This document shows, piece after piece, positions 3,587 to 56,929 of a stretch of DNA of 64,000 nt. Position numbers and translations under genes: made by a program. A model generated the notes under the pieces. That model did no database searches, was not told the origin of the DNA, and saw only the letters and a list, made by a program, of their open reading frames with translations. The stretch's first letter is position 1. Each line of letters begins with the position of its first letter. The stretch comes from an uncultured delta proteobacterium (GTDB taxonomy: Bacteria > Desulfobacterota > Binatia > UBA9968), in the NCBI GenBank assembly GCA_963760795.1, contig CAVXEP010000014.1, positions 19,500 to 83,499 on the forward strand, read 5' to 3'.

Positions 3587-4565
3587 ACTTCTTAAGTTGA
3601 TCCAGCTCCCGCACCACTTCCGTGGTCACGCTCCAGTCGACGATATCGCTGGGCTTGATAGTGCCGGCTTTTTGTTTGGTGCTGCGCAACGTGGTCTCGA
3701 TGAAATCCACCACCGCTTCGTCGGTGGTTCGGCCGGTGTCGCGGAAGGATTTCACCATCTGCGTGATCGAAAGGCGCGCTTCCTTGTCATTTAAATTGAG
3801 AAACTGCTTGGCGAACGCCTCGGCTTCGCCGCGGTTGGCAGCGATGTAGCGGCGGATGCGTTCCAGGCCGCGCACGATCGCTTTCACCTCGGCGCGGTCC
3901 TGCGCCAGTTTTTTCTTGCTCGTCGCCAGGCCGGAGAACGGCATATCGAAAATCTCCGACGAATCGAACAAGCGGTTGGCGCCCTCCAGCTCGGCCTTGA
4001 TGTCGTAGGGCGGCCCCAAGATCGCGCTGTCGATGGTGCCGGCGGTGAGCGCGGAATAAAGTGTCCGGCTATCGCCGATCTGCAGCAGCGTCACCTGCTT
4101 TTCGGCATCGAGTCCGTGATGCTTGAGTATCAATCGAGCCGCCAGATCATAGGCGCCGCCGAACACGCTGATACCCACCGTCTTGCCCTTCAGATCGGCG
4201 ACCTGTTTGTACTTGGCCTGAGAGACTAAGTACATCTGCGCCTTGAACATCGAGTAGATGCCGATCACCGGCGCGCCGGCGATGGCGGCGCGCAGCGTGC
4301 CGCCCATGGCCGCGGAGTAATCGACGTCGCCGCTCATCAGCCCCTTGGCGGCGATGCTGGTCGACATGTAAATCATCTTCACGTCCAAGTTGGCTTCCTT
4401 GAAAAATCCCTTGCGGCTCGCCCAGGCGAACGGCATCTCGGCGATGGTCCGCCCGGAGTAGCCGATCACCGCGTCGCGCGCCTGCGTGTCATGGGAAAGC
4501 CCGAGCAACAAGACAAGAATGATGAGGAGCAGATCTCTTTGAGAACGAAAGCATGACACCTCCAA
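3585..4565 (-). CDS. ABC-type substrate-binding protein, SsuA/NMT1 family
   Basis: Signal peptide, KGFFKEANLDV, DLKGKTVGIS..GG, AL.AG.IDSAIL.PP. Confidence 0.85.
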   Translation of the reverse strand: MEVSCFRSQRDLLLIILVLLLGLSHDTQARDAVIGYSGRTIAEMPFAWASRKGFFKEANLDVKMIYMSTSIAAKGLMSGDVDYSAAMGGTLRAAIAGAPVIGIYSMFKAQMYLVSQAKYKQVADLKGKTVGISVFGGAYDLAARLILKHHGLDAEKQVTLLQIGDSRTLYSALTAGTIDSAILGPPYDIKAELEGANRLFDSSEIFDMPFSGLATSKKKLAQDRAEVKAIVRGLERIRRYIAANRGEAEAFAKQFLNLNDKEARLSITQMVKSFRDTGRTTDEAVVDFIETTLRSTKQKAGTIKPSDIVDWSVTTEVVRELDQLKK

Positions 4566-4590
4566 TGAGTAGTAGGTTACCGAATAATCT

Positions 4591-4731
4591 TCTCGGAGTC
4601 CTTCGACAAGTTCAGGACGATCGGCAATAGTCCTGAATTGACAAAAACCAGCCGTTCATGCTGACACCTCGACAGCTCGGGACAAAGGCTGTCGAGGGTG
4701 CCTGCCCTGAGGCCCCCTGAAGGGTCGAACC
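4591..4731. repeat. REP-like palindromic element (CCTTCGACAAGxTCAGGACG family) with internal inserted hairpin
   Basis: ttctcggagtccttcgacaagttcaggacgatcgg...ccgttcatgctga...aggctgtcga; an inverted copy lies at 6581-6668. Confidence 0.6.
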
Positions 4732-4844
4732 GTTCCAAGCTCCACTCATTTAGCAAACGGCCTGACAAGACTGCAAACCAAATCGCCGACGCGAGAGCGG
4801 CGCTGCAGCGATTGCCAAACCGTTGAATGATTCCACACTTCGCC

Positions 4845-4874
4845 TTGACAGTGGAAAAACCTCCCGTATAAGAT
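4845..4874 (+). promoter_or_regulatory. Putative sigma70 promoter of thiolase operon
   Basis: TTGACA at 4845, TATAAG/TAAGAT 16-18 bp downstream. Confidence 0.55.
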
Positions 4875-4966
4875 CGCGCCAACAAGAAAATTGGCATCGC
4901 ACTGAAAAACACTCTGATCGGTTCATTGCCAAGTATGCCTTTTAAAAAGTCGACGAAAGGAAAATC

Positions 4967-6121
4967 ATGACGAACCTCAGTGGCAAATGCGCCATCGTAG
5001 GAATGGGCGAGACCGTGGTGGGAAAGCGTCCCGACGCCACCACCAACTCGCTCCATCTTGAAGCGATCAAGGCCTGCCTCGACGACGCTGGCATCAAAGC
5101 ATCCCAGGTCGACGGCCTGTTGACCAACCAACCGCTCAACGACGCGCACCGCAGTTACGCCACCAAGCTCTCGCATATGGCCGGCATCGATCCGCTGTTC
5201 GCCACCGATCTCGCGCTCGGCGGCGCGACGCCCATCGCCATGGTCCAGCATGCGGCGATGGCGATCGAAGCCGGCATGGCGACCACCGTCGTCTGCGTCC
5301 ATGCGCGCAAGCGCTCCACCGCCGATCCGACGCCCGGTCATCCGATCCGGCGCGGCGACGAGCATTGGGAGGAGCCCTGGGGCCACTTCGCCGCCGCCGG
5401 CGGCCACGCCTTTGCGGCGCAGCGCCACATGTATGAGTTCGGCACCACCAGCGAAGACCTCGCCCATGTCGCGGTGTCGACGCGCTACCACGCGAGCCTC
5501 AACAAGAACGCCACGCTGCGCAAACCCATGACCATCGAGGAGCACCAGCAGTCGCGCATGATCGTCGCGCCGCTGCGCTTGTTCGATTGCTCGCTGGAAT
5601 CCGACGGCGGCGGCGCCGTGTTGGTGACCAGCGCCGAGCGGGCGCGGGATTTCCCCAAGAAAGCGGTGGCGATCTTGGGCATGGGGCAGCATCACCCGCA
5701 CTTCAGCCTGCTCGATGCGCCGACGCTGACGACTCTCGGCGGCAAGAAATCTTCTGAGGCGGCTTACCGCATGGCGGGGATGAAACCTAAAGATATGCAG
5801 TTCGCGCAGATCTACGATTGTTTCACGATCACGGCGATGATCACGCTGGAAGATTACGGCTTCTGTAAAAAAGGCGAAGGCAAGGACTTCGTCAAGAACG
5901 GACGGATTACTCTCGGCGGCCAACTGCCGCTCAACACCCACGGCGGCTTGTTATCGCAAGCCCATCTTGAAGGCCAGCTGCACATCACCGAGGCGGTCAA
6001 ACAACTGCGCGGCAACGAAGTCGAGCCGGAACGGCAGGTGGCAAACGCTAAAGTCGGCATCGTCAGCGGCCATGGCGGCAGCCTTTCTATGCATGCAACG
6101 ATGATCTTGGGGGCATTATGA
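4967..6121 (+). CDS. SCP-x/Ltp2-type thiolase-family protein
   Basis: AIVGMGET, PLRLFDCSLESDGGGA, IYDCF, PLNTHGGLLS; the usual N-terminal Cys position reads GGAT. Confidence 0.9.
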   Translation: MTNLSGKCAIVGMGETVVGKRPDATTNSLHLEAIKACLDDAGIKASQVDGLLTNQPLNDAHRSYATKLSHMAGIDPLFATDLALGGATPIAMVQHAAMAIEAGMATTVVCVHARKRSTADPTPGHPIRRGDEHWEEPWGHFAAAGGHAFAAQRHMYEFGTTSEDLAHVAVSTRYHASLNKNATLRKPMTIEEHQQSRMIVAPLRLFDCSLESDGGGAVLVTSAERARDFPKKAVAILGMGQHHPHFSLLDAPTLTTLGGKKSSEAAYRMAGMKPKDMQFAQIYDCFTITAMITLEDYGFCKKGEGKDFVKNGRITLGGQLPLNTHGGLLSQAHLEGQLHITEAVKQLRGNEVEPERQVANAKVGIVSGHGGSLSMHATMILGAL

Positions 6122-6549
6122 GCAAAGACGAACGCGGGCGCGCCGCGCGCCGAGGACAACCCTATCTCGAAGAGCCTGACGCCAAACCGTTTTGGGCCAA
6201 TTTGCGGGAACACAAACTAACCGCCCAACGCTGCTCGTCATGCCAGAAAATATTTGGCTTCCCGCCGCAGTCGCACTGTCCGCATTGCCTGGCGAACGAC
6301 TATGAATGGGTGCCACTGAGCGGCAAGGGAACAATCTATTCCCATATCGCCTACCACCGCGCTTGGCATCCGGCGTACCAGGACAAGGTTCCCTACAACG
6401 TGTCGCTGGTCGACCTCGACGAAGGCGGACGGCTGGTGACCAACGTGGTCGGCTGCCCACCGGAAGAAGTCAAGATCGGCATGAACGTCGAAGTGATCTT
6501 CGAGGACCTGCCGGACTATACGCTGCCGAAGTTTCAGCCGGTGAAATGA
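6118..6549 (+). CDS. DUF35 Zn-ribbon/OB-fold protein
   Basis: CSSC..CPHC, SGKGTIYS, VDLDEGGRLVTNVVG; start overlaps the thiolase stop (ATGA). Confidence 0.9.
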   Translation: MSKDERGRAARRGQPYLEEPDAKPFWANLREHKLTAQRCSSCQKIFGFPPQSHCPHCLANDYEWVPLSGKGTIYSHIAYHRAWHPAYQDKVPYNVSLVDLDEGGRLVTNVVGCPPEEVKIGMNVEVIFEDLPDYTLPKFQPVK

Positions 6550-6580
6550 GCCGAGTGGATTGCAGAAAAAAGTTCGGAAC

Positions 6581-6797
6581 GCATCGACAGCCTCAGCATG
6601 ATCGGAAAATCCACAAGGACATCAAAACCCTCCGTTCGTCCTGAGCATTGTCGAAGAATTCCGAGAGAGATTTTCAGCATCCTGAATGCTGGTTCAGCTG
6701 GTCTAGATTCCCTCTCGGAGTTTATCCCGGCGCAGCCGCAGGATTCGGGATGACGGCAACTCGCGATCTGTCATTTCGAGCGCAGCGAGAAATCTTT
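6581..6797. repeat. Two adjacent palindromic elements (CCTTCGACA family copy; GTCATT..GAG..AATCT family)
   Basis: ccgttcgtcctgagcattgtcgaagaattccgagag (inverse of 4591) followed by agattccctc...cgggatgac...gtcatttcgagcgcagcgagaaatct. Confidence 0.55.
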
Positions 6798-6855
6798 CTT
6801 ACTGCCTGCAATCAAGTGGAACTCAATCTCAACCATGAACCCCATTGACGCAGGC

Positions 6856-7941
6856 TTACTTTCTCTCCTGCTCGATAAATTGCCTGATGAATTTGGCTAA
6901 GTCAGGAGAAATCCCCGTGGCGCGTTGATAAAGCCGTTCGCCGCTCGCGCCCATTTCAAACCTCGGGCGAAAGCGCATCACCTTCACCGCATCGGCGAGA
7001 TATTCTTCGTCCTTCGATAGCGACGCAGCGGCTTGCTTCAGCGCGGCTACCGCCTCCTTGGGCGCGCCGGGCGGCAGTAATATCGCCCGGGTCATGTTGG
7101 TGCCGGCGATGTTGGCCGCCTTCAAAGCTTCGTACTTGATGCCGGAAGGCGGCTTGCCCAAGACTTGCGTGTAAAATTTCGTGAACGACAGCAGCTCTGG
7201 AACATCCGGACTATCGGCGACACCGCCGTCAGCATCGATCAAGTCCGCGTGGTACAGCGCCGTCACTTGGCCGGGTTTTACCATGTTGGGCTCCACCTGC
7301 GATCGGTACGCCGGCAGGGTTTCGTCATGATACTGCACTTCGTTGCGCTGCACCGCCAATCGGGCGTCGGCGCTGGAGTTGTAACCGGTCACATAGTCGT
7401 ACTGCAAACCGAGAAGATCGAACGATAGTCGAAACGCCACGTCCTTGAAACTATCGTTGCTCAGGCCGCCGGCTTTGAACCGTTGGGCCTTTAGAAGATC
7501 GCCGGGCTTCTTGATGCCGGGAGCGACATCCGAGCGAATATAAGACACGGTGACTCCCTGGATTCCCGAAATGAAAGCGTATTTCGACAGGTCGGTACGC
7601 AGCGCGGGGTTTTTCACCTGCTGATGAAACAGCGCGCCGGTGAAGTAGCCCATGGTCAGCCCGTCGGCTTTGGCGACTTGTCCCAAGAAGTTGGTGCCAA
7701 TGATGCCGCCCGCGCCAGAAATATTTTGCACGATGACATTCGGTTGTCCCGCCACATGTCTGCCAAGATGGCGCGCCAAGAGCCGGCCCTCGACATCGGT
7801 GGGCCCGCCGGCGGCATAATTGATCAAAACGATGAGGGTCTTGCCCTCGTAGAAGGGTTTCTCGGCGGCTAAACTTTGCGTAACCCACGCAATGTAAACG
7901 CCGATAACCAACAAGCGAAGACGTAATGAATGATGCTTCAT
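6856..7941 (-). CDS. TctC/Bug-family tripartite tricarboxylate transporter substrate-binding protein
   Basis: PFYEGKTL..INYAAGGPTDV.GR..ARHL...V.GQPNVIVQN..GAGG. Confidence 0.85.
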   Translation of the reverse strand: MKHHSLRLRLLVIGVYIAWVTQSLAAEKPFYEGKTLIVLINYAAGGPTDVEGRLLARHLGRHVAGQPNVIVQNISGAGGIIGTNFLGQVAKADGLTMGYFTGALFHQQVKNPALRTDLSKYAFISGIQGVTVSYIRSDVAPGIKKPGDLLKAQRFKAGGLSNDSFKDVAFRLSFDLLGLQYDYVTGYNSSADARLAVQRNEVQYHDETLPAYRSQVEPNMVKPGQVTALYHADLIDADGGVADSPDVPELLSFTKFYTQVLGKPPSGIKYEALKAANIAGTNMTRAILLPPGAPKEAVAALKQAAASLSKDEEYLADAVKVMRFRPRFEMGASGERLYQRATGISPDLAKFIRQFIEQERK

Positions 7942-7987
7942 TCCCTACTCCTCTTTTTTACGGGATCAATTCCCCGCAGCTCGCAGT

Positions 7988-9055
7988 TTATCGCACAGGC
8001 AGCGGCTCGACACCGGAGAACTTCTTCAACAAATCGACGACCTCGGCATCGCGAGGCATTTCCTGAATCACTTTGGCAAGCTCTTCGGGCATCAGCGGTG
8101 AAGCATCGTCGTTGGCGAGCTTCTTGAACTCAGCGCGAAACTCGGGATCCTTGAACACTTTGCGCATGGCGTCTTGCAGGATCTCCACGCGATCCTTCGG
8201 CGTCCCCGGCGGCAACACGAACGGCGACGTCGCCGTTCGAAAGCTGCGCCACATGGTCAGCAGCTTTCGCTCTCTATCGGTTTTGGCGAAACTCTCGATC
8301 TCCGGCAGTTGCGCCAGGCGCGGGTGCGGTGGCTTGTCGTCTTTCGGCACGGCGATGATCGCGTGAAAATCCATAATGCCCTTGTCGATCCAGTCGCGAT
8401 TGCGGGTCAGGACCGAAGTCACGTTATTCGAGCGCGAATCGATCTCGCCGTTGCGCAACGCCACGTCCGCTTCCAGCGAACTATAGCCGGTGACGAACTT
8501 AGGCGCTTTAATATCGAGAAAGTACGCGAACAGCCGAGCCGAAACATACGCCACCGCGCCCACCTCCTGGGCGCCGAGGCGAAGCCCGCTCGCCGCGCGC
8601 AGCTTGTCCAGTGAATTGAGACCCAACTCCCGCCGCGTGTAGATGACGTTATGGTTCTCGCTCACCGGCGTGCCGAGATAGATAAACTTGTCGATATCAT
8701 ACATGACACCGGTCTCTTTCATGACCTGAAGGCCGATCATCGCGCTGCTGAGCGCGCCGACGGTCAGACCGTCCGGCTTGGCGTTTTGAAAAACCTGGTT
8801 GGCCGCCCGGCGTCCGCCGCCGCCTTCGACGAACTCGATAAGCAACGTTGGATTGCCAGGAATATATTTGCGCAGGTAGGTCATCACGACCTTGACCCGC
8901 AGCCCCGCGGTGCCGCCGGGGTCGTTATTGATGATCTTGATTGTCTTGCCCTGAAAAAATGGCGCTTGGGAATGAACCGATGGCGGAGCAACCGCAAGCA
9001 GATACAAGATGCCGAAAAAGAATGTCGGAAACATTTTTTTCGATCTCATGCACAC
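7988..9055 (-). CDS. TctC/Bug-family substrate-binding protein
   Basis: PFFQGKTIKII...PGG, KYIPGNPT, AKPDGLT, PPGTPKDRV.IL. Confidence 0.85.
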   Translation of the reverse strand: MCMRSKKMFPTFFFGILYLLAVAPPSVHSQAPFFQGKTIKIINNDPGGTAGLRVKVVMTYLRKYIPGNPTLLIEFVEGGGGRRAANQVFQNAKPDGLTVGALSSAMIGLQVMKETGVMYDIDKFIYLGTPVSENHNVIYTRRELGLNSLDKLRAASGLRLGAQEVGAVAYVSARLFAYFLDIKAPKFVTGYSSLEADVALRNGEIDSRSNNVTSVLTRNRDWIDKGIMDFHAIIAVPKDDKPPHPRLAQLPEIESFAKTDRERKLLTMWRSFRTATSPFVLPPGTPKDRVEILQDAMRKVFKDPEFRAEFKKLANDDASPLMPEELAKVIQEMPRDAEVVDLLKKFSGVEPLPVR

Positions 9056-9151
9056 CTCCGGGATTCAAGAATCATCTGAATCATCACGGGTCAACCAGCC
9101 TCACCGGACAAAGCCAGTCGCTCCGGTGGATTATCGAGACGATGGGTTCGA

Positions 9152-10168
9152 CTATCTTCCGCCGTACAACTTGGCTATGAAACCCTCGCCTTCCAGCTCG
9201 CCGATCAGACTACGGTCGATAAAATCTTCCGCCCTCAGTTGGCCGGCCTGGGGGACCGTGGCAGCGAGTTGTTTCAACGCCACGGCCATTACCTTTGCGT
9301 CCGGTGCGGGAATCTTCTCTTGCACGTCTTTGTAAACCTCAAAGGTTCGGTCGAGGATATCGCGGTCGGCCGTCTTGAGAAATTTTTGCAGCACTCTGAC
9401 GGTGAGCCCTTTGTCAGTGCGCGCCGTCTTGATACCCTCGATCCAGCCGCGCAAAAATCTTTTCAGCACTTCGCGCTTCGCCTGAACAAACGCTTTGCTC
9501 ACCACGATGGTGCTGCCGGGATATTGAATCGGCAGCTGGCTAAGATCGATCACCGTATGGAAGCCCAACTTTTCTGCGTGAAACGCCGTGTCGCCGGTAA
9601 GGATCGCGCCGTCCACGGCGCCCGCTTTCAACGCGCCGAGCCTTTCGGGAAGACCGCCGGTCTGCATGATCGCGACATCGCGGTCGGGAGTTAAGTTGAA
9701 GTGACGCAACGCATCCCGCAGCACTAAATCGGAGAGCGATCCGTAGCGGTCGCTACCCACCCGTTTGCCTTTCAGATCCTCCGGTTTCTTGATCGCCCCG
9801 CGGCTCATGACGACATGGAGTAGGCGATTGGAAGTCACACCCACCGCCACCAGCTCGGCGCCGCGCGCCCAGGCGGTGAGGGCGGGGGCTGAACTCATGT
9901 TGGCGATCTCCACCTGCCCGGATAACAGCGCCGGCACGATGATTGACCCCGCGGAGATATAAACCGGCTGGATTTCCAGGCCGTATTTTTTGAAATAACC
10001 GGCCTGCTCGGCAATCCACAGTGGCGCATAGGTCGGTGACAGCGCCGCATAGGGCACTTTCATGCTCTGCGCAAAGAGCGACGGCGGCGCGGAAACAAAC
10101 AGGTATGAAACCAGAACGGTGAGTAATTCGAGCTTGCGTCGCGGCCCCATGATCGATCGAGCTTTCAA
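9152..10168 (-). CDS. ABC-type substrate-binding protein, SsuA/NMT1 family
   Basis: PLWIAEQAGYFKKYGL, EDLKGKRVG..RYGS, FIDRSLI.ELE.EGFI.KLY. Confidence 0.88.
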   Translation of the reverse strand: MKARSIMGPRRKLELLTVLVSYLFVSAPPSLFAQSMKVPYAALSPTYAPLWIAEQAGYFKKYGLEIQPVYISAGSIIVPALLSGQVEIANMSSAPALTAWARGAELVAVGVTSNRLLHVVMSRGAIKKPEDLKGKRVGSDRYGSLSDLVLRDALRHFNLTPDRDVAIMQTGGLPERLGALKAGAVDGAILTGDTAFHAEKLGFHTVIDLSQLPIQYPGSTIVVSKAFVQAKREVLKRFLRGWIEGIKTARTDKGLTVRVLQKFLKTADRDILDRTFEVYKDVQEKIPAPDAKVMAVALKQLAATVPQAGQLRAEDFIDRSLIGELEGEGFIAKLYGGR

Positions 10169-10776
10169 GCCCCGGCAGTCCTAAGCTGCGCGACTGGCGC
10201 GTCTACGAATAATTGCAGCTGGTCGGATCGCGACACCGTCACGTTGAAGTTGTACGCGTTGGAGCGGAACTGCGCCAACGCGAAAGGCTGGGAGTGCGCG
10301 GCGACGCCGTGGATGCAGTCTTCCGGCACGATCGTGTAATAATTGCGGATGTGAAATCCGATCACCGCGTGATAGACGCAGTTGCTCGAACCGATGCCGG
10401 TGACGATCACCGTGTCACGGCAGGCGCGCAGGTCAAGCTTGTCGAGCACCGTCTCCATGCTCGTCTTGTAGAAACAGTCGTGCGAAGTCTTCTGCACCAC
10501 CGTCTCGCCCGGCAGCGGTCTTAATTCCTCGACGAAATCGGCGCCCGGGCTGCCCAAGATCAAACCATAGGGCCGGCCGAATACGGTAAACTCCGGATGA
10601 TCCTTGGTCCGCACCGATTGGACATGAATGATCTTGCCGTTAATCGCGCGGAAGCGGTCGAGCAAGGCGCGAATATTGGCGATGACCGGTTTCATCTCTG
10701 GGCCATGGCGTTCGCAGCCTTCCACTTGCATGTCGACGATCACCAATCCGGTGGATTCGGGATTTAAATCGATCAT
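10165..10776 (-). CDS. Isochorismatase-family cysteine hydrolase
   Basis: LVIVDMQ, K..HDCF, TGIGSSNCV; ATG at 10776. Confidence 0.88.
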   Translation of the reverse strand: MIDLNPESTGLVIVDMQVEGCERHGPEMKPVIANIRALLDRFRAINGKIIHVQSVRTKDHPEFTVFGRPYGLILGSPGADFVEELRPLPGETVVQKTSHDCFYKTSMETVLDKLDLRACRDTVIVTGIGSSNCVYHAVIGFHIRNYYTIVPEDCIHGVAAHSQPFALAQFRSNAYNFNVTVSRSDQLQLFVDAPVAQLRTAGA

Positions 10777-10821
10777 TTCTTCGATCCTCCTGGCGCGCTC
10801 TACGGACAATCTGTCTTGAAA

Positions 10822-10962
10822 CTATTCCACAGCCGGGTCCGTGTCGACGGCGCCCACCGCTTCGAGCCAAGGCCGCGTCAAACCGAAGCGGGCGACCTCG
10901 CAGTCAATGGCGCCGGAACCGTAGAAGATGACTTTGATTTTGTCGCTGCGCTCCGTGCTCAT
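10822..10962 (-). pseudogene. 46-codon N-terminal fragment of a DapB/Ord-like NAD(P)-dependent oxidoreductase
   Basis: Manual translation MSTERSDKIKVIFYGSGAIDCEVARFGLTRPWLEAVGAVDTDPAVE*: Rossmann beta-alpha-beta with GxGxxG altered to GSGAID; not in the ORF track. Confidence 0.6.
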
Positions 10963-11026
10963 GGCAACGCCGGGTCTCGCCAATTGAACTTCCTGGTGCG
11001 TAAAACCAACCTCAGCGCTACCAAAG

Positions 11027-11986
11027 TCACGCTGCTTTCTTGTTCTGCCAGAGCGCCATTAACCGATCGCGCTCGTTTTTGTCTAGATGGCTAAGCGCCT
11101 GATCGACGATATCCATCCCCACCATCTGGTTCCACGCGCCAATGAGCCGTAGCGTTATCGGCCCCGGCGCGCCTTTGCCGATCTTGGCGCCATTGACCGT
11201 GCGGACCGGTACAAATGTCGGGCTGGTACTCGCTAGAAAAGCCTCTTCCGCGGTGTAAAGGTCGTAGGGCGTGAAATTTCCTTCGACGATTTCTAGGCCC
11301 AATTGCCTCGCCAGGCCGAAGACCGCCTCCTTGGTAATGCCGCCGAGCACGTTGCGGTCGGACGGCGTGCACAACTTGCCGTTGACCACGAGGAAGAAGT
11401 TATGCGCGCTGGTCTCGCTCAGGTTGCCATCGATATCAAGCATCAGCGGGATCGCCCGCGGGTCCACCTGCTTGGCCTCGAAGGATGCCATGTTATGGTT
11501 CATCTTGTTGGTAATCTTGGCTTTGGACTCAAGGCACTCTGGCGGTATGCGGCGTGTCGATGGAATGACGATGGGCGCGCCCTCGACATAAAAGCTTGCG
11601 AACTCGGGAAAATTTACGATCACCGAATAGACCGTCACGGTGGCCCCGCCGGCCACACGATTGCCCCTGGAAGAACGCACGCCGCGGCTCACCACTTGCC
11701 AAAGCGCGAGGTCTTCATTGGCGCGCAACTGCGGCTTATTGCGATCGAGCACTTGCAAGGTAATTTTTTCCATCTCTTCACAGGATAGGCCGCAGTCGAT
11801 GCGCGTGTACTGCAGCGAGCGGAACAGCCGCTCGGTATGCTCGCGCAAGCGAAAGGGCCTTTGATCAAACGTACGCGTAACGTCATAGACTCCGTCGCCC
11901 GCGTTGAAGCCGCTGTCCAAAACCGACACCTTCGCCTGGCTCTCCGGCACAAAGGCACCATTCAAATAGACGATCCGTTCTTCCAT
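11027..11986 (-). CDS. Class IV PLP aminotransferase (IlvE/Dat/PabC family)
   Basis: VYLNG.FVP...AKVSVLD.GF..GDGVYD, FRLREH..RL..S, catalytic K in KAKITN, LGGIT, AEEAFL.ST. Confidence 0.9.
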   Translation of the reverse strand: MEERIVYLNGAFVPESQAKVSVLDSGFNAGDGVYDVTRTFDQRPFRLREHTERLFRSLQYTRIDCGLSCEEMEKITLQVLDRNKPQLRANEDLALWQVVSRGVRSSRGNRVAGGATVTVYSVIVNFPEFASFYVEGAPIVIPSTRRIPPECLESKAKITNKMNHNMASFEAKQVDPRAIPLMLDIDGNLSETSAHNFFLVVNGKLCTPSDRNVLGGITKEAVFGLARQLGLEIVEGNFTPYDLYTAEEAFLASTSPTFVPVRTVNGAKIGKGAPGPITLRLIGAWNQMVGMDIVDQALSHLDKNERDRLMALWQNKKAA

Positions 11987-50704: not shown

Positions 50705-51892
50705 TCAAGCGTGTGCATGTTGTTCGATCAGCTCACATGCCGTGGCGGCGCCGTCGGCGTTTTTCAATCGGCCGGCGAGCGTCCGGCAGTTCTCGCCAAC
50801 CTCTGGCGAACGCAGCAATCGAAGCATGGCATCCGCTATAATTGCCGGCTGCCATTTTGGCGGGGGTAAGAACTCCGCGATCCGCAGCTTCTTCAAATGG
50901 GACGCGTTGTCCGGACGATCCGCCCCTTTGGGCAGAACAAGCTGTGGAACTCCGGCAGCCATCGCGCATCCCAGGGTTCCCATACCCCCATGGTGAATCA
51001 CCAGTTTTACTTGGGGCATCAGCTTCCCGAATGGAACATAGCCGACCCAACTAACACAACCAGGATAATCACCCGGTAGCTGCTCCTTGTGCTGTGCCAC
51101 CAGAATCCCTAGAACATTTAACGATCGGCAGGCTGCAGCACTAGCGGCATAGAATTCCCCATCTAAATACATGCCCGTGCCCGCCGTGATCAGAATCGGC
51201 GTGGCAGATTTATTCACGGCGTTTTGGATAATCTCTGGAATCTCGCCCTCATTACCGTCGTCATCTCGAAAAAAACCCACCGGGGTCACGGTGAACGGCA
51301 AGTCAAATTCAACCTTGGCAAACCAGTCGGGCCACAACCCGATTGCGCCCGATGGATACTCAAGCCGGGCATCTCCATGCACGACTTTCTCCAGGCCCAG
51401 CGCTGCTCGAGCTCGATCGATGTCAGATCGTAACAGATCGGTGAACAATTGTTGCCGGAGCTTCCAGGTCGCAGCTTGACTGGGAAATCCGAAAACCCAG
51501 CGCAGCGGCAAGTGGCTCTTTTCGGCGGCCACGCGCATCGCGGTGTCGAAAAGATCGCGGGTTACGAGAACGGTGTTTCGTGATTGGCACGCCTGCGCAA
51601 TCAACTCGTAATGTCTGACAATCTTAGCTAATGAATGTTTTCGAATGAATTCTGATACTCCACGAGGATCATTCAAGAGATGCTGATCGGCGATGAATTC
51701 TCGGTACTCTTCGGGAGTGTCGACGGGGATGAACTCTAAAGAGGCTCGTTTGGCTATTTCTTCGTAACCAAAATGAGTTATGAGATTGACCTCATGACCT
51801 CGCGCTTTGAGCCGGCGTCCAATCTCAATGAACGGCGAGACATCACCCCTCGATCCAACAGAAAAAAGAACCACATTTAACGGTAGGGTCAC
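50705..51892 (-). CDS. GT1 (GT-B fold) glycosyltransferase, RhlB/sterol-glucosyltransferase-like
   Basis: GSRGDV.PF..IG..LK.RGHEV, HHGGMGT, GVPQLVLP..ADRPDNA. Confidence 0.88.
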   Translation of the reverse strand: MTLPLNVVLFSVGSRGDVSPFIEIGRRLKARGHEVNLITHFGYEEIAKRASLEFIPVDTPEEYREFIADQHLLNDPRGVSEFIRKHSLAKIVRHYELIAQACQSRNTVLVTRDLFDTAMRVAAEKSHLPLRWVFGFPSQAATWKLRQQLFTDLLRSDIDRARAALGLEKVVHGDARLEYPSGAIGLWPDWFAKVEFDLPFTVTPVGFFRDDDGNEGEIPEIIQNAVNKSATPILITAGTGMYLDGEFYAASAAACRSLNVLGILVAQHKEQLPGDYPGCVSWVGYVPFGKLMPQVKLVIHHGGMGTLGCAMAAGVPQLVLPKGADRPDNASHLKKLRIAEFLPPPKWQPAIIADAMLRLLRSPEVGENCRTLAGRLKNADGAATACELIEQHAHA

Positions 51893-51912: not shown

Positions 51913-54154
51913 CTACTTGCGCTCCGGTAGATGGGTCTCAGATAAGCGGCTGCCAGTAAGATTCTCGGCTTGCTCTTCGGTAAGTTCCGATAGCTTCTGA
52001 AAAATCTGATTTACATCCTCTGAGTTCATTCTCTTAAGTTGTTGCTGCACTAACGTGTCCGCTAGTTCCGCCACCGTGAAGCTGCTGGTGAAAAGCAACG
52101 TCGGCGTGAGCTCGGCATCAAACTCAGCGTTCAATCGGGACAGTACTTGCATCGCGATTAGCGAGTGACCACCCAAATTGAAAAAACTATCGTGGACACT
52201 GATTTCGTCAAGACCCAACAAGTCGCAGAAGATCGCAGCGACCGCGGTTTCCACCGGAGTGCGAGGACGGATAGCGATCGGAACTGCGGAGTGTCGCATA
52301 CGGATCTGAGCAAACCGGTCGTGAATCGACGGGACATCGCGCAGCCTCTCAGCGATGGTAGCCAAGAACGTATTTAGGGCGGCCATCTCGGCTGTGGTCA
52401 TTCCGCCTGGAACCTGCATCGTCACTTTCTTCGACTCGGCCATTGTCATTGTTGGAATGCTCGGTCGGAGAGTAAGTGACCGATGCCGCGGCCGCCGCGA
52501 CAAGCTGAAACAGCTGGCGATCGGGGAATGAAGTACAAACGACGCCCGGCAGGCTTTTCAGAAACACCACGGCAGGAATATTTTTCGGCGACGGTTTGCA
52601 CATGATATTGACGGACTTCAATCCGCGCTGTTGTGCAAGTAAGCCGAGATGAGCGATCACTCGGTGCTCCACCCCGCGGCCCAACGCTCGGCAACTGAGC
52701 AGAAACGAATCGACGACTAAGCCGTCGTTCTCTGTCTGATATAGGATCGCCCCAACAAGGCCATAATCTCCAAACCGGTCCTTTACATGCACGACCAGGC
52801 AATCTGTAGATGCGGCCCCCTGAAGCTGCTTCATTTCCAAAGGCGTGCGCCGCTGCGTCGTCGTATTGAATTGGTTGGTTCTCATTGTCAGTTCGGCCAC
52901 CCGCTCGACCTCGGGATCGGCCATTTTTGAAATGGTCACCGCCAACTCAAGATTGGCGAGAAAATCGTCGAGCGATGTTGCGTCACGCCGAACCTGTTCG
53001 CGCATGAAATGCTCTTGATAGAGTTTCGTGCGTTGCCGGTCCTCGTTGGTCAACGACTCATGATCGAAGGCCCAAACATGGCGCAAGAAGGCTGGAATTT
53101 CGCTCGGCACCGGTGGCAACAAAAGAGTCAGAACTTCCGGCAACCTCGCGCGGATCTCGGCACAGACCATTGAATCGTCGTCGAGAAATATAAAACTATC
53201 GAGGGAAAGCCCAAGTTCCTGCGACAGGGAGGCCAGGTTCTCCGACTTCGACTGCCAATTGATTCGCCAGGCCACGAGATCCCGTTTCTTCAACAGCATT
53301 TCGCTGCGCGCATCGAAAACCTGCAACACTTCTTGTTCATCGTTCTTGCTGCAGAGGGCGACCAGCATGCCACGGCGCTGCTGTGCGAGAACGCATTCCT
53401 GAAGAATTTTTCGGCAGGGTTCGAAACTTATCCCTGCACAGCCATCCTCACCGACAACACCGCTCCACAAAGTATTATCGCAATCGAGCACGATGACCTT
53501 ACGCTGAGGGAGCTTTAACTTGTGCAGCTTACGGGCAATCATCATCGACAAGGCTGTATAAAAACGGGGTGCATAGGGAATGTCGGCCAATAGACTGCCG
53601 TGAGGGTCATGATAGTCGGCCAACGGATACAGAGATAAGAGAGCGCCGCTAGTGACGATCTCCACGGCGCTCATTCGTGAGAGCTCCGATGCAAGCCACT
53701 CTTCCATTTCAGCCAAGGAGTTGGATTCCCGAATTGAATCTGCAATCGACGGACTAGGCGGGCATAGTATCACAATTAACGGAGCGGCATTCCGCTTCCT
53801 GAGCTCGACAACCCCGGCGAGAAAATCGACAACGTTGCGCTTCAATTCTTCATGTGAATCCGGCATTGGGAAGTCATCAGTTGGAGCAACAACAGGCTTT
53901 CCATACCAATCTGCAAGGCGTACCAATGCAACATTCACTCCGTTTTGGTTCTTTGCATGCAAGCTCGCTGGGTCGAGTAATTGTTGAAACACCTGGTTGT
54001 ACGGCGCGAAGGAAATCGCAGCAGTGACGCCCATCTCACGCAGCCAGCATTGAAGCGGCTCTTCCACTGGCTCGGCGACAAAGGTGGCGCAGATCGCCAC
54101 GTGCAGTCCGGGAGGACCCGCGGCTTCTATCGAATTGTCGTCCACTGTATTCAT
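51913..54154 (-). CDS. fkbH: FkbH-like glyceryl transferase/phosphatase fused to a phosphopantetheine carrier domain and C-terminal docking-like tail; frameshift between about 52380 and 52480
   Basis: ATFVAEP..YNQVFQQLLDP, KVIVLDCDNTLWSGVVGEDG (HAD DxDxT), LCSKN, RTNQFN, DRFGDYGLVG, LLSCRALGRGVE. Downstream frame: PRTPVE...FFNLGGHSL (Ppant Ser) and LSELTEEQAENL. Confidence 0.88.
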
Positions 54155-54167
54155 GAATTACCCTCGT

Positions 54168-55637
54168 CTACTGAATCATGCATTTTTCGAGCAGAAGCTG
54201 AATCGATTGCTTGGCTAGTTGGTTTGGCGGCATCAGAAGCCCCGCGCTCCCACGGGCGATTCGGACACGCGGCGACTCCACCGTCGCTGTTCGTCTGGTT
54301 CCAGCCAACGGCGCGAAAGGGTCCTGCGTCGCTGCCAATTTGTTTGTCGCCATACTATTCGCCAGGCTTGGCATCTGCCTACTATCCACGGCGAACCAGC
54401 ATTGGTAGACTCCCTGATCGGTCTCCAAGATCATGAAAGCGCTACGTTGTAGCAGGTCCAGCGCTGGAGCATCCAAGTCGTTTAAGCGCAGCAAACTCAG
54501 TCCGCCTTGCCGGCCATGGTCCCCGGGACGAATAGCCACACTAAGATGCTTATGCTCGGCCTCTCTCAAGAGCTCGGGCAATCGGCGTCGAAGGTCGTCA
54601 GGTCCCAAATTTGGTAGCGACTCCAATACTTCGCTATTTTTTGCGCTCACCCTCAGTTCGAAACAATCCCGGTCGATGGACTGGAAAAGCGCAATCATCA
54701 ACTCGGCTTGTTCAACAGGAGATACACCCTCCTCTTCGTCCGCGACATACGTAACCCCGGTCATGATTCGGCGGTGCCCTCGGCCAAACTTGACCAATAA
54801 GTCCCTTGATACCGGAGTCGATTGGTTGTTGCCACGCCATCCCATGGCAGTGACGCCCCACTTTTCGCAGAATCGGTTGGTGGTGGCGATATTCCACTGC
54901 TCGCTCCACCGAAGCATGAAGTACGGCAGGTCGGTCCAGTCGTAGGGAGGTGAAGGAATATAAGTAACGACAGATTTTGGTTCGAAATAAACCGAGCCAC
55001 CCGCTCGGTTTACGCCCAAACAAAAATCGATATGCTCGTGGACACTCAATAGTTGCTCGTCCAGAGTCCCAACAGATTGGAATGTCTCGGTTCGCACCAA
55101 CATGCAGTGAAACTCTACATAGTCAAAGCGTCTTCTTACCAGCCGCTCTTTTAATTCTCGAATCGGCGTATTGAAAAGATTTTGCTCGTCGTACAAAACC
55201 TTCCCCCCAGACTCGTCTTTGAAGTTGACATTTCCACCGGCAACGTGGACAACCCCGGCGCCGATCTCGCCGATCAAGCAGAGCGGTCCGACAACCCAGG
55301 CGCCGGTCTCCTCGGCGCAGCGAACCATGGCCTCTAGCCATCCCGGAGTAACCAGCGCGTCGTTATCGATAAAAACTACGTATTTCGTCTTGACCTCTTT
55401 CACGCCGAGGTTACGTGCTTGATTGGGCGATATGTGATGTTCCGTAGTGATCAGCAGAAATCCCTTTTCGCTCGACTGCTGTTGAAGGTAGCGTTGAACA
55501 CGGGAGGGAGCTTTACCGGCAACATAAACGAGGTGAAACGGCAACGGAGTGTTTTCGTAAATGCTCGAGAGGGATCGCTTCGTCAAACTAAAACGCTCTC
55601 GTAGCACAACAACTAAAGTGACTTGCGGATCTTGCAA
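54168..55637 (-). CDS. GT2 glycosyltransferase fused to C-terminal RepB-primase-like (AEP) domain
   Basis: GGAGG RBS then TTG at 55637. GT-A motifs SPNQARNLG, VVFIDND (DxD), EFHCMLVR, EHIDFC. C-terminal about 175 aa: VAIRP..LLRLNDLD..ILETDQGVYQCW..PLAG. Confidence 0.8.
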   Translation of the reverse strand: MQDPQVTLVVVLRERFSLTKRSLSSIYENTPLPFHLVYVAGKAPSRVQRYLQQQSSEKGFLLITTEHHISPNQARNLGVKEVKTKYVVFIDNDALVTPGWLEAMVRCAEETGAWVVGPLCLIGEIGAGVVHVAGGNVNFKDESGGKVLYDEQNLFNTPIRELKERLVRRRFDYVEFHCMLVRTETFQSVGTLDEQLLSVHEHIDFCLGVNRAGGSVYFEPKSVVTYIPSPPYDWTDLPYFMLRWSEQWNIATTNRFCEKWGVTAMGWRGNNQSTPVSRDLLVKFGRGHRRIMTGVTYVADEEEGVSPVEQAELMIALFQSIDRDCFELRVSAKNSEVLESLPNLGPDDLRRRLPELLREAEHKHLSVAIRPGDHGRQGGLSLLRLNDLDAPALDLLQRSAFMILETDQGVYQCWFAVDSRQMPSLANSMATNKLAATQDPFAPLAGTRRTATVESPRVRIARGSAGLLMPPNQLAKQSIQLLLEKCMIQ

Positions 55638-55918
55638 TTGGCGCCTCCGATTTCTCACGCACACGGAATTAACCTACTATCCAAGAGCACCGATGGTCCT
55701 TTATTTACTCGAGCTTAGCAAGCCAAATGCGCGGCCCATTCGCTTTGCCCGGACTCCGCACCCATGAATTAACAGATATAGCTATCGGCATCCAGGCGTC
55801 GACGACTGAGGAGTTTTGTTCTGGAACATTTCTATTCTATCGAATCTCCCTATTGACGGCGAGGCGGCCATTGAATATTGGTACGACAGCTAAAATCCGC
55901 AGCGGAGGTATTTTGCAT

Positions 55919-56929
55919 ATGCGCATGATCGTCATCGGCACCGGCCCCATCGGCGGCATCATCGGCGGCAGGCTGGCGCGCGCCGGCGCGGACATCACCT
56001 TCGTCGACATCGACAAGGAACATGTCAGCGCGATCCGCGACAAAGGCTTGCAAGTCGACGTCCCCGACGGTCCGTTCAACGTCAAAGTAAAGATCGTTTA
56101 TCCCAACGAGCTCAATGAGATTGGCGACAAGTTCGACACCGGCTTTATCGCCGTGCGTTCCAACTACACGCCCGACGCCTTGAACACTGTCCTGCCCCAT
56201 CTCGCTGACGACGGCGTGTTGGTGTCCATGCAGAACGGTATCAATCCGCCGCTGCTGCAAGAAAAAGTCGGCGCCGACCGCACTCTCGGAATGGCGATCC
56301 GCATGGGTTGCCGCAAAGTCGGCCCCGGCCATGTCCAAACCGACATTCGCGGGCATCTCTACCTTGGCCACCTGCACGGCAAAACCACGCCGCGCTTGCA
56401 AGAGCTGCAAAAAACTCTTGACGCCGTTATGGAAACGGAAATCTCCGACAATATCCTTGGCGTACTCTGGAGCAAGCTCACCTACACCTGTCTCGGCTAC
56501 TACGGCTCGCTGGCCGACGCATCCTTGGCGACAACTTGCACGACCGAAGCCGACCGCCGCACCATCGCCGACTTCTTCGCCGAAATCGTCGCCGTTGGCG
56601 AAGCGCTGGGCGTGCGCTGGATCAAACTTGCGGAGTACTACCCAGCCGATTTCCATCCAAGCAACTCCGCCGACAAACGGCTTGCCGCGGTCAATGAATT
56701 CGCGAAAACCTGGAAGCCAGAAGACCGCAAAGGCCCGCTGCGCTACGTCCAGAACAAGCTTCGCACCGAAGTCGACTTCACCCTCGCCTACGTCGTTAAC
56801 GAGGGAAAGAAGCTGGGGATGAAGATGGCGCTGTGCAGCGAGCTGCTGGAGATTTTCCGCGAGTTGGAAGCGGGCAAGAGGCAATTTGGCCAACAGAACT
56901 ATGAGGAGCTGGTGGCAACAATTAAATGA
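55919..56929 (+). CDS. Ketopantoate reductase (PanE/ApbA) family protein
   Basis: VIGTGPIGGIIG..L, VSMQNGI, SDNI....WSKL, TEVD. Confidence 0.85.
   Translation: MRMIVIGTGPIGGIIGGRLARAGADITFVDIDKEHVSAIRDKGLQVDVPDGPFNVKVKIVYPNELNEIGDKFDTGFIAVRSNYTPDALNTVLPHLADDGVLVSMQNGINPPLLQEKVGADRTLGMAIRMGCRKVGPGHVQTDIRGHLYLGHLHGKTTPRLQELQKTLDAVMETEISDNILGVLWSKLTYTCLGYYGSLADASLATTCTTEADRRTIADFFAEIVAVGEALGVRWIKLAEYYPADFHPSNSADKRLAAVNEFAKTWKPEDRKGPLRYVQNKLRTEVDFTLAYVVNEGKKLGMKMALCSELLEIFRELEAGKRQFGQQNYEELVATIK

What the first reader, a model, noticed from the sequence alone, without database searches (positions are those of the whole stretch)
54168..55637. GT2 glycosyltransferase fused to a degenerate RepB'-type primase (AEP) domain
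Seen: after a complete GT2 domain, the last about 175 aa (about 54720-54190) read QAELMIALFQSI..CFEL..DLRRRLPELLREAEHKHLSVAIRP-x8-LSLLRLNDLD..AFMILETDQGVYQCWFAV..PLAG..PRV. Established knowledge (recalled, not searched): plasmid RepB' primases of the RSF1010 type have the ordered motifs VYIRP, LVLVDDL, VVETSPxNYQAW and RLAGFTN. The motif order and spacing match, but the first catalytic Asp is Asn (NDL), RLAG is PLAG, and the primase helical C-domain is missing. Inference: a catalytically altered primase fold is reused as a nucleic-acid- or nucleotide-binding module on a sugar transferase. It might target glycosylation to DNA/RNA or a nucleotide (modification or defence), or sense ssDNA. I know of no described GT2-RepB fusion.
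Basis: partly seen in the sequence, partly recalled or inferred. Interest (0 to 1): 0.85.

Follow-up and report, generated by a model that had tools for sequence, protein, structure and literature searches.

The report
Glycosyltransferase carrying a dead primase domain
A sugar-adding enzyme has permanently acquired the core of a plasmid DNA-primase that has lost its catalytic residues, and this fused form is always encoded beside a glycerate-loading carrier protein, so the old primase fold now seems to serve small-molecule sugar chemistry and not DNA.

Summary
Gene 54168-55637 (-) encodes an intact GT2 (GT-A) glycosyltransferase. Its last ~185 residues are a true homolog of the RepB' (RSF1010-type) primase catalytic domain. 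Foldseek's best PDB hits are 3H25/3H20 (E 4e-8, TM 0.61). A profile built from fusion proteins alone scores 75-145 bits on bona fide RepB primases.

The domain is catalytically degenerate. None of 115 fusion homologs keeps all four RepB' catalytic residues, against 41 of 46 standalone primases. The helix bundle needed for priming is absent, and the domain is acidic.

The fusion is not a chimera. It is a single-origin family present in several phyla.

- All 17 fusion loci examined, and both copies in this genome, are followed directly by an FkbH-ACP (glyceryl-loading) gene, then a GT1 or GT4.
- Some loci add NRPS modules, and one has ABC exporters.
- None of 63 GT2-only relatives has an FkbH neighbour.
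- There were no PADLOC or plasmid matches.

Best reading: an exapted pseudo-primase domain acts as the recognition or docking module of a glycosyltransferase working on carrier-bound glycerate. The exact role of the domain is inferred, not shown. No paper describing it was found.

The parts
54168..55637 (-). GT2::RepB'-like fusion gene. Probable TTG start at 55637 with a GGAGG Shine-Dalgarno site. The longest ORF starts at GTG 55664. Stop TAG at 54170-54168.
   Evidence: homolog starts and lengths
54765..55628 (-). GT-A fold GT2 glycosyltransferase domain (P0001 residues ~13-300). The D100-N101-D102 motif and E184/H186, D202/E203, E210/D213 are invariant or nearly invariant in 62 homologs.
   Evidence: Pfam; invariant columns; AF2 model pLDDT 90.3, pTM 0.91; Foldseek top hits are GT-A polypeptide GalNAc-transferases, E 8.8e-14
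54171..54719 (-). RepB'-type AEP primase catalytic-domain homolog (P0001 residues 316-498). Catalytically degenerate, with no helix bundle.
54471..54485 (-). Motif I remnant L-N-D-L-D (residues 394-398). It corresponds to RepB' D77-D78. The first Asp is Asn here.
   Evidence: alignment to 3H20; column counts (pos. 395: D91 E15 N3 of 115; pos. 396: D54 of 115)
54396..54407 (-). Motif II Y-Q-C-W (residues 420-423), retained. It corresponds to RepB' Y105-Q106-A107-W108.
   Evidence: Q 108/115 and W 110/115
54300..54311 (-). P-L-A-G (residues 452-455). The motif-IV Arg (RepB' R145) is replaced by Pro. The motif-III Asp equivalent (A444) is also lost.
   Evidence: R 32/115 in fusions against 45/46 in primases; D 5/115 against 43/46
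51913..54154 (-). FkbH-ACP gene (N-terminal domain, FkbH/HAD-IIIC domain, PP-binding carrier, conserved C-terminal tail). In the window it is split into two overlapping ORFs by a 1-nt insertion near 52394.
   Evidence: NCBIfam TIGR01686 293 bits against cutoff 146.65, and PF00550; single 746-aa ORF in L001-L003; DNA alignment
50705..51892 (-). GT1 (macrolide-GT-like, GT-B) glycosyltransferase, the third gene of the cassette.
   Evidence: PF06722, PF03033; TIGR01426/TIGR04516 partial matches; conserved in 7 of 17 fusion loci

Best explanation
The gene encodes an active-looking GT-A (GT2) glycosyltransferase. Its C-terminus is an exapted, catalytically dead RepB'-type primase (AEP) domain. The domain was acquired once from a RepB-like primase lineage. 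It then lost the helix bundle, the second motif-I Asp, the motif-III Asp and the motif-IV Arg, and became acidic.

The fusion works in a three-gene cassette: GT2::RepB-like, then FkbH-ACP, then a GT-B glycosyltransferase. FkbH loads a glyceryl unit from 1,3-bisphosphoglycerate onto its own carrier domain. This step follows from established FkbH chemistry.

Inferred steps:
- The GT2 and the GT-B enzyme glycosylate the carrier-tethered glycerate, or a product made directly from it.
- The pseudo-primase domain, packed rigidly on the GT-A domain, provides the recognition or docking surface that couples the transferase to the FkbH-ACP protein or to its tethered substrate.
- The product is a glycosylated glycerate-derived metabolite. 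In other lineages it is passed to NRPS C-A-T modules or exported by ABC transporters.
For: Homology and fold:
- 13 of 62 homologs hit PF16793.
- Direct phmmer links lead to proteins with PF16793 and PF22448.
- An HMM built only from 115 fusion proteins scores about 75-145 bits over nearly its whole length on the standalone primases.
- Foldseek's top hits are 3H25/3H20.
- The top three ESM Atlas clusters shown carry PF16793 in 97-99% of their members.

Inactivation:
- RepB' needs D77, D78, D134, R145 and its helix bundle (PMC8567376, abstract and passages read).
- 0 of 115 fusions keep all four residues, against 41 of 46 standalone primases.
- PF22448 is not among the 10 families listed for the 62 homologs.
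- The window has N395, D396, A444 and P452.

Single origin: one split holds 115 of 115 fusion domains plus 1 of 46 others, with support 1.0.

GT2 intact: the DND motif and other columns are invariant.

Rigid two-domain unit: full-length AF2 model pLDDT 90.3, pTM 0.91.

Context:
- All 17 of 17 fusion loci have FkbH-ACP immediately downstream.
- Both copies in the window's own genome do too.
- 0 of 63 GT2-only homologs have an FkbH match. Those sit in glycan/ABC/OprB clusters.
- In L010 the GT4 is fused to an NRPS C-A-T module, which argues for on-line glycosylation.
- FkbH chemistry: PMC8949500, passages read.
Against: - No direct evidence shows what the pseudo-primase domain binds.
- Its net negative charge (median -5) is not what one expects of a surface that docks an acidic carrier protein.
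- The first motif-I Asp (91 of 115), the motif-II Gln (108 of 115) and several fusion-specific polar residues (D331, R332, R393, R466) are conserved. This could mean a ligand pocket or a new catalytic site, and not only a docking surface.
- The minimal cassette has no obvious release enzyme.
- The window's FkbH-ACP carries a frameshift, so this copy may be inactive if the indel is real.
- Co-occurrence counts come from related loci and are not independent.
Confidence: 0.6

Rival explanations
1. One reading: the altered primase fold binds nucleic acid or a nucleotide and directs glycosylation to DNA/RNA or nucleotides (modification or phage defence), or it senses ssDNA.
For: The fold is a true AEP primase fold. 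The motif-II Gln/Trp and, in most members, the first motif-I Asp are retained. HD-domain (DUF6817/HD_4) proteins occur in 7 of 17 loci. GT4 neighbours weakly match PF20706 'GT4-conflict' alongside stronger generic GT4 models.
Against: - The strict partner is FkbH-ACP, a carrier-protein pathway.
- The motif-III Asp is kept in 5 of 115 and the NTP-binding Arg in 32 of 115.
- There is no helix bundle.
- The domain is acidic: median pI 5.5 against 8.8 for primases, and only 7 of 115 are net positive.
- None of 5 cassette proteins hits PADLOC.
- There is no plasmid match, and no mobile-element genes were seen in the neighbourhoods annotated.
Confidence: 0.05
2. The domain is neo-functionalised as a new catalytic or ligand-binding site. 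For example, it may bind the phosphopantetheine arm or the glycerate carboxylate, or release the glycosylated product from the carrier, using the remodelled former active-site face.
For: Some polar residues are conserved in fusions but differ in primases:
- D331: 111 of 115, against Gly in 41 of 46 primases.
- R332: 103 of 115, against Ala in 29 of 46.
- R393: 73 of 115, against Gln in 44 of 46.
- C422: 105 of 115, against Ala in 36 of 46.
- R466: 93 of 115.
R393 lies two residues before the motif-I Asp on the same strand. The minimal cassette lacks a thioesterase.
Against: These residues could just as well form the interface with the GT-A domain or lie in the core (Cys for Ala). No known hydrolase or transferase motif was recognised.
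Confidence: 0.2
3. The domain is only a structural or oligomerisation appendage (or a decaying relic) with no specific partner. The link to FkbH-ACP merely reflects shared descent of one transferred cassette.
For: - The C-domain evolves faster than the GT2 domain: 64-67% against 86-87% identity in L002/L003, and about 31-39% against 53-57% in distant loci.
- All fusions form one clade, so the co-occurrence could be inherited.
Against: - The domain is kept full-length, with nearly invariant positions, across loci whose record titles name Chloroflexota, Acidobacteriota, Beta-, Gamma- and 'delta' proteobacteria.
- It is kept even where the rest of the cluster has been rearranged: GT1 or GT4, NRPS, and an HD gene inserted between the two genes.
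- The model packs it confidently against the GT-A domain.
Confidence: 0.15

Closest known systems
RepB' primase of plasmid RSF1010 (PDB 3H20/3H25; Pfam PF16793 RepB_primase)
   Same: Same alpha/beta AEP catalytic-domain fold and the same motif order: the FDL strand, IRP, the (L)DDL strand, ET..YQxW and LAG(S). It is the best structural hit and the best PDB sequence-profile hit (E 4.6e-12; that profile was mixed, see Tried and rejected).
   Different: - No helix-bundle (PF22448) domain.
- The window has Asn for D77, Ala at the D134 position and Pro for R145.
- The family as a whole has lost these residues.
- The domain is acidic.
- It is fused behind a glycosyltransferase in a chromosomal biosynthetic cassette, not in a plasmid replication or mobilisation module.
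~570-620-aa proteins with an unassigned N-terminal region plus an intact RepB primase and helix bundle (e.g. P0128, P0141)
   Same: They are the closest catalytically intact relatives of the fused domain. P0128 is 40% identical, with E 1.1e-18 and 197 bits against the fusion-only HMM. They share the helix-plus-FDL start of the domain.
   Different: They keep LDDL, GAD..G..R.AGS.N.K and the PF22448 helix bundle. They have no GT2 domain.
GT2-only homologs of about 320-365 aa, mostly cyanobacterial (L016-L080)
   Same: About 47-56% identical over the GT2 domain, including the FMLRWSExW region.
   Different: The 8 sampled have no RepB-like domain. None has an FkbH neighbour: 0 of 63. They lie in clusters with GT28-like and GT4 transferases, an ABC exporter, a histidine phosphatase, an epimerase and an OprB porin.
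Polypeptide GalNAc-transferases (GT-A catalytic domain plus a C-terminal lectin domain)
   Same: They are the best structural matches of the full-length model (E 8.8e-14). The logic is analogous: a GT-A domain followed by a non-catalytic, acceptor-targeting C-terminal domain. The analogy is my inference.
   Different: Only 14-17% identity. The C-terminal domains are unrelated (ricin-type lectin against AEP fold). The acceptors are different.
FkbH-carrier loading modules of PKS/NRPS pathways
   Same: The neighbour gene matches TIGR01686 well above its cutoff and carries a PP-binding domain with the GGHSL serine. FkbH domains load a glyceryl unit on a T domain (PMC8949500, passages).
   Different: Here it is a stand-alone FkbH-ACP invariably paired with the GT2::RepB-like gene. 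In the window's clade no PKS or NRPS gene was found among the cassette and the flanking ORFs annotated.

Membership tests
RepB'-type AEP primase (functional enzyme) | AEP/RepB' catalytic-domain fold and sequence homology (PF16793) | tested here: met
   Foldseek 3H25/3H20 at E 4e-8, TM 0.61. 13 of 62 homologs hit PF16793. The fusion-only HMM scores 75-145 bits on RepB primases. The window's own domain has no direct Pfam hit at E<=1.
RepB'-type AEP primase (functional enzyme) | Motif I catalytic Asp pair (RepB' D77, D78) | tested here: not met
   The window has N395-D396. Among fusions, D is found in 91/115 and 54/115. Among standalone primases, 45/46 and 44/46. D77A or D78A abolishes primer synthesis (PMC8567376).
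RepB'-type AEP primase (functional enzyme) | Motif III catalytic Asp (RepB' D134) | tested here: not met
   The window has A444. Asp occurs in 5/115 fusions against 43/46 primases. The region is variable, so the column assignment rests on the spacing to the LAG motif.
RepB'-type AEP primase (functional enzyme) | Motif IV Arg that positions the incoming nucleotide (RepB' R145) | tested here: not met
   The window has P452. Arg occurs in 32/115 fusions against 45/46 primases.
RepB'-type AEP primase (functional enzyme) | Motif II Gln (RepB'-family substitute for the AEP His) | tested here: met
   Q421 is present in 108/115 fusions and 45/46 primases. The Gln in RepB'-like enzymes is described in PMC5862659 (passages).
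RepB'-type AEP primase (functional enzyme) | C-terminal helix-bundle domain (PF22448), required for dinucleotide formation | tested here: not met
   The ORF ends about 25 residues after the domain. PF22448 is not among the families found in the 62 homologs. The requirement is stated in PMC8567376.
RepB'-type AEP primase (functional enzyme) | Plasmid or mobile-element replication context | tested here: not met
   No tblastn match in 72,556 plasmid records. The neighbours are biosynthetic genes.
GT2 (GT-A) glycosyltransferase | Pfam GT2 models above the gathering score | tested here: met
   PF00535 at 45.5 bits (cutoff 23.3) and PF13641 at 38.8 bits (cutoff 27).
GT2 (GT-A) glycosyltransferase | DxD-type metal/nucleotide-sugar motif, conserved | tested here: met
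   In D100-N101-D102, N101 and D102 are invariant and D100 is at least 90% conserved in 62 sequences. That this is the DxD motif is my reading from general knowledge of GT-A enzymes.
GT2 (GT-A) glycosyltransferase | GT-A fold | tested here: met
   AF2 model pLDDT 90.3. The top PDB hits are GT-A enzymes with probability 1.00.
GT2 (GT-A) glycosyltransferase | Donor and acceptor identity, and transferase activity | not testable with these tools
   This needs biochemistry.
FkbH-ACP glyceryl-loading protein (neighbour) | FkbH domain above the curated cutoff, plus a carrier domain with the attachment Ser | tested here: met
   TIGR01686 at 293.4 bits against 146.65. PF00550 at 58 bits. GGHS(L) and the LSCRALGRGVEH block are invariant or nearly invariant in 15 sequences. 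In the window the two parts are in different frames.
Known anti-phage defence systems (PADLOC) | Match to any PADLOC model | tested here: not met
   0 families for 5 cassette proteins at E<=0.01.

The most novel reading that the evidence does not exclude
A plasmid primase catalytic domain was captured once by a glycosyltransferase and stripped of its polymerase chemistry. Its former nucleotide-binding cleft was re-tooled, with new conserved Asp/Arg residues, into the module that recognises a phosphopantetheine-tethered glyceryl substrate or its carrier protein. This would enable on-carrier glycosylation, and would be the first AEP-fold pseudoenzyme working in natural-product or glycoconjugate biosynthesis.
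Probability: 0.3. Interest if true: 0.75.

Novelty: new variant of a known kind. Interest (0 to 1): 0.6.

Why it matters
AEP primases are known as nucleic-acid enzymes of replication, repair and mobile elements. A conserved, multi-phylum family in which the RepB' catalytic fold has lost its catalytic residues and is fixed to a glycosyltransferase in a carrier-protein pathway would extend the known uses of this fold to small-molecule metabolism. It is a clean case of pseudoenzyme exaptation.

It also flags an uncharacterised, patchily distributed three-gene cassette (GT2::pseudo-primase, FkbH-ACP, GT-B). The cassette probably makes glycosylated glycerate-derived metabolites in soil bacteria.

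There is a practical point for annotation as well: PF16793 hits inside glycosyltransferases should not be read as plasmid replication genes.

Tried and rejected
1. Direct Pfam and NCBIfam scans of the window's C-terminal domain found nothing relevant. A single-sequence PDB search found only a chance scFv match at E 2.1. The relationship appeared only through homologs, profiles and structure.

2. The A2 profile that hit 3H20/3H25 mixed fusion fragments with standalone primase-like sequences. I therefore do not use it alone as proof of homology. It serves only to map residues. The clean tests are.

3. My first mapping of RepB' D134 to an Asn of the window (from alignment A2) was replaced by A444 after the larger alignment. 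The region is variable, but no conserved Asp exists at either place.

4. Complex prediction of the full GT2::RepB-like protein with the linker-ACP-tail part of the L001 FkbH-ACP gave no verdict: score 0.28, mark 0.32, controls not run. It counts neither for nor against binding.

5. I tried to fetch RSF1010 from the plasmid collection by accession. There is no such record, so RepB' was used only as printed.

6. Defence and mobile-element ideas: no PADLOC hit and no plasmid match.

7. Literature: searches returned no paper whose title or abstract describes a GT2-AEP/RepB fusion or this FkbH-GT cassette. Only listings were read for those.

9. I did not use read mapping. The fusion's wide occurrence already excludes a chimeric join, but the FkbH-ACP frameshift remains unchecked.
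Full report
**What is there.**
The minus-strand ORF 54168-55664 (498 aa, GTG start) contains the finding. A TTG at 55637, preceded by GGAGG, matches the 'MQDP' starts and 489-aa lengths of the nearest homologs. I use the 498-aa numbering (P0001); subtract 9 for the TTG start.

Residues 13-253 match Pfam GT2 models above threshold. N101 and D102 of the D100-N101-D102 motif, and several other acidic or His positions, are invariant in 62 homologs, and D100 is nearly so. The full-length AlphaFold2 model is confident (pLDDT 90.3, pTM 0.91). Its best PDB matches are GT-A enzymes, led by polypeptide GalNAc-transferases (E 8.8e-14).

**Is the C-terminal domain a RepB' primase domain?**
Yes. The window's own domain has no direct Pfam hit, but several lines of evidence that do not share a method agree:
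- 13 of 62 full-length homologs hit PF16793 at E<=0.01, best 1e-7. Seven of the 120 listed database homologs already carry a precomputed PF16793.
- phmmer with the window's 189-aa domain against 1.84 billion representatives gave 103 hits at E<=1e-3. Of the 20 hits I scanned, 18 carry PF16793 and/or the PF22448 helix bundle. One (P0196) had no hit, and one (P0127) is a GT2 fusion.
- An HMM built only from the C-terminal columns of 115 fusion proteins scores about 75-145 bits, over nearly its full length, on the standalone primases.
- The domain model (pLDDT 91.2) has RepB' structures 3H25_A and 3H20 as its best PDB hits (E 4.4e-8 and 5e-8, probability 1.00, TM 0.61-0.62, 20% identity). The cyanophage S-2L PrimPol AEP domain comes next, and further AEPs follow at weak scores.
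- The top three ESM Atlas feature-search clusters shown carry PF16793 in 97-99% of their members, at scores of 0.95-0.96.

**Is it catalytically competent?**
No, by every sequence criterion I could test. RepB' needs D77, D78 and D134 for nucleotidyl transfer, R145 for the incoming nucleotide, and its helix-bundle domain for dinucleotide formation. The isolated catalytic domain is inactive (PMC8567376, abstract and passages). RepB'-like enzymes have Gln in motif II (PMC5862659, passages).

I mapped positions through the HMMER alignment to 3H20 and a joint alignment of 115 fusions with 46 standalone primase-like domains.

| RepB' residue | Window residue | Fusions keeping it | Standalone primases keeping it |
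|---|---|---|---|
| D77 (motif I) | N395 | D 91/115 | D 45/46 |
| D78 (motif I) | D396 | D 54/115 | D 44/46 |
| D134 (motif III) | A444 | D 5/115 | D 43/46 |
| R145 (motif IV) | P452 | R 32/115 | R 45/46 |
| Q106 (motif II) | Q421 | Q 108/115 | Q 45/46 |

None of the 115 fusions keeps all four catalytic residues, against 41 of 46 primases. One of the 46, P0150, groups with the fusions.

There is no helix bundle. The ORF ends about 25 residues after the domain, and the next gene starts 13 nt later. PF22448 is not among the families found in the 62 homologs.

The structural core motifs are retained: IRP, ET..YQxW, LAGS. The domain is acidic. Its median pI is 5.5 and its median net charge is -5, with 7 of 115 net positive. 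The standalone primases have a median pI of 8.8, with 27 of 46 net positive.

**Is the fusion real, and how old is it?**
The fusion is not an assembly artefact. 115 of the 121 best homologs (470-545 aa) are full-length fusions from many metagenomes and MAGs.

Of the 80 loci kept from the species-representative genome collection, 17 carry the RepB-like domain by HMM (E 1e-78 to 1e-25). All 8 sampled short homologs lack it. By their record titles, the 17 loci come from 'delta proteobacterium' MAGs, Chloroflexota, Acidobacteriota, Thermoanaerobaculia, and Beta- and Gammaproteobacteria.

In a FastTree of the domain, one split with support 1.0 contains all 115 fusion domains plus P0150 and excludes 45 primases. 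This indicates a single capture.

The nearest intact relatives are 570-620-aa proteins with an unassigned N-terminal region, an intact primase and a helix bundle (P0128, P0141).

Distribution is patchy:
- Two copies in the window's own genome.
- Matches in 3 of 18 other genomes of the same genus, and 0 of 12 in other families of the order.
- 0 of 300 in a sample of the phylum, with this single query at E<=1e-5.

**Context.**
This is the most informative result. In all 17 fusion loci, an FkbH-ACP gene lies directly downstream, or after one inserted HD-domain gene. In L018 only a 183-aa piece matched. The same holds for both copies in the window's genome. The paralog on contig C19 has the order GT2::RepB-like, a 746-aa protein that matched PF00550 and aligns in full with the FkbH-ACP family, then GT4, with two divergent ABC exporter genes next to it.

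None of the 63 GT2-only homologs has an FkbH match. They are about 320-365 aa, mostly cyanobacterial, and 47-56% identical in the GT2 part. They sit with GT28-like and GT4 transferases, an ABC exporter, a histidine phosphatase, an epimerase and an OprB porin.

Downstream of FkbH-ACP there is either a GT1 (7 of 17 loci and the window) or a GT4. In L010 the GT4 is fused to an NRPS C-A-T module. L005 and L004 have A-T proteins. HD/DUF6817 proteins occur in 7 of 17 loci and are fused to the GT4 in L021.

The FkbH-ACP proteins share the HAD motif, the LSCRALGRGVEH block, the GGHSL carrier serine, and a conserved acidic tail after the carrier domain. FkbH domains load and dephosphorylate 1,3-bisphosphoglycerate to give a glyceryl unit on a T domain (PMC8949500, passages).

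**Interpretation.**
Shown:
- A GT2 with an intact-looking active site.
- A RepB'-derived domain that cannot be a primase.
- A single origin of the fusion.
- Strict coupling of the fused form to FkbH-ACP.

Inferred:
- The transferases act on carrier-tethered glycerate or on its immediate product. The GT4::C-A-T fusion argues for on-line glycosylation.
- The pseudo-primase domain supplies the recognition or docking function that the GT2-only relatives do not need.

I put about 0.85 on 'dead AEP domain in a GT2 of an FkbH-ACP glycoconjugate pathway'. I put about 0.4 on the docking or recognition role specifically. The stated confidence of 0.6 is for the whole statement.

Fusion-specific conserved residues (D331, R332, R393, C422, R466) leave room for a re-tooled ligand pocket or a new catalytic role. 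I could not place them in space, because model coordinates are not returned. The acidic charge is a caution against simple docking of an acidic ACP.

Nucleic-acid or nucleotide glycosylation, defence and ssDNA sensing find no support:
- The nucleotide-binding residues are lost.
- The domain is acidic.
- There is no PADLOC hit and no plasmid match.
- No mobile-element neighbours were seen.
- The conserved partner is a carrier-protein pathway.

**Novelty.**
Databases already hold the architecture implicitly (PF00535 with PF16793). These proteins are named only 'GT2 family glycosyltransferase' or 'hypothetical'. Six full-text searches returned no paper on such a fusion or on this cassette. Only listings were read, and subscription journals and supplements were not covered. 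I rate it a new variant of a known kind: a glycosyltransferase with a non-catalytic accessory domain, whose accessory domain has an unexpected primase origin.

**Limits.**
- The complex prediction gave no verdict.
- Co-occurrence counts come from related loci and are not independent.
- The motif-III column lies in a variable region.
- The window's FkbH-ACP has a 1-nt insertion relative to three relatives. It may be an assembly error or a real inactivation.

Noticed in passing
window 51913-54154 (-), indel near 52394: The FkbH-ACP gene is split into a 601-aa ORF and an overlapping 196-aa ORF in another frame. The cause is one extra base relative to L001, L002 and L003, where it is a single 746-aa ORF. 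The indel lies in the linker before the carrier domain. It could be an assembly or sequencing error, or a real pseudogene.
   Followed up: partly
own genome G000:C19:223410-224861 (locus L084 11363-12862, -): A second, 47%-identical GT2::RepB-like paralog sits in the same genome. It has its own 746-aa FkbH-ACP (9144-11384) and a GT4 (7826-9130), plus two divergently transcribed ABC exporter genes (3901-5640, 5640-7454). A luciferase-like monooxygenase and a formyltransferase lie upstream.
   Followed up: partly
L010 11764-16311; L021 11681-13672; L004 9445-10245; L008 9501-10256: In distant fusion loci the GT4 is fused to an NRPS C-A-T module (L010) or to an HD/DUF6817 domain (L021). A stand-alone ~250-aa HD/DUF6817 protein is inserted between the fusion gene and FkbH-ACP in several loci. 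The role of the HD domain is unexplained.
   Followed up: partly
L024 4113-15017 and other cyanobacterial loci L020-L080: GT2-only homologs (about 50% identical, without the primase domain) lie in a conserved cluster. It holds two GT28-like genes, a GT4, an ABC exporter, a histidine phosphatase, an NAD epimerase/dehydratase and an OprB porin. This looks like an exported glycan or glycolipid pathway of unknown product.
   Followed up: partly
proteins P0128, P0136, P0140, P0141, P0158, P0161, P0162, P0223, P0224: A set of 570-625-aa proteins with an N-terminal region of about 280-340 aa, followed by a RepB primase domain. Six were scanned: all six hit PF16793, four also hit PF22448, and none had a Pfam hit in the N-terminal part at E<=0.01. 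The sequences of P0128 and P0141 keep the catalytic motifs. P0128 is the closest intact relative of the fused domain.
   Followed up: no
L015 8001-9125 and 9103-9501: In this relative the fusion gene is itself split into a 374-aa ORF and a 132-aa ORF (a frameshift or an error). The second ORF is the rear part of the RepB-like domain.
   Followed up: no
FkbH-ACP alignment A5, last ~45 residues (window about 51913-52050): After the carrier domain, all 15 FkbH-ACP proteins have a conserved acidic tail (L..L..LSD[D/E]E...LL, with one Asp nearly invariant). It resembles a short docking motif. Its partner is unknown.
   Followed up: no
window 55727-56929 (+): A divergently transcribed ketopantoate-reductase-like (ApbA/PanE) gene lies immediately upstream of the fusion gene. 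It is conserved at this position in L003, but only as a fragment in L001 and elsewhere in L002.
   Followed up: no
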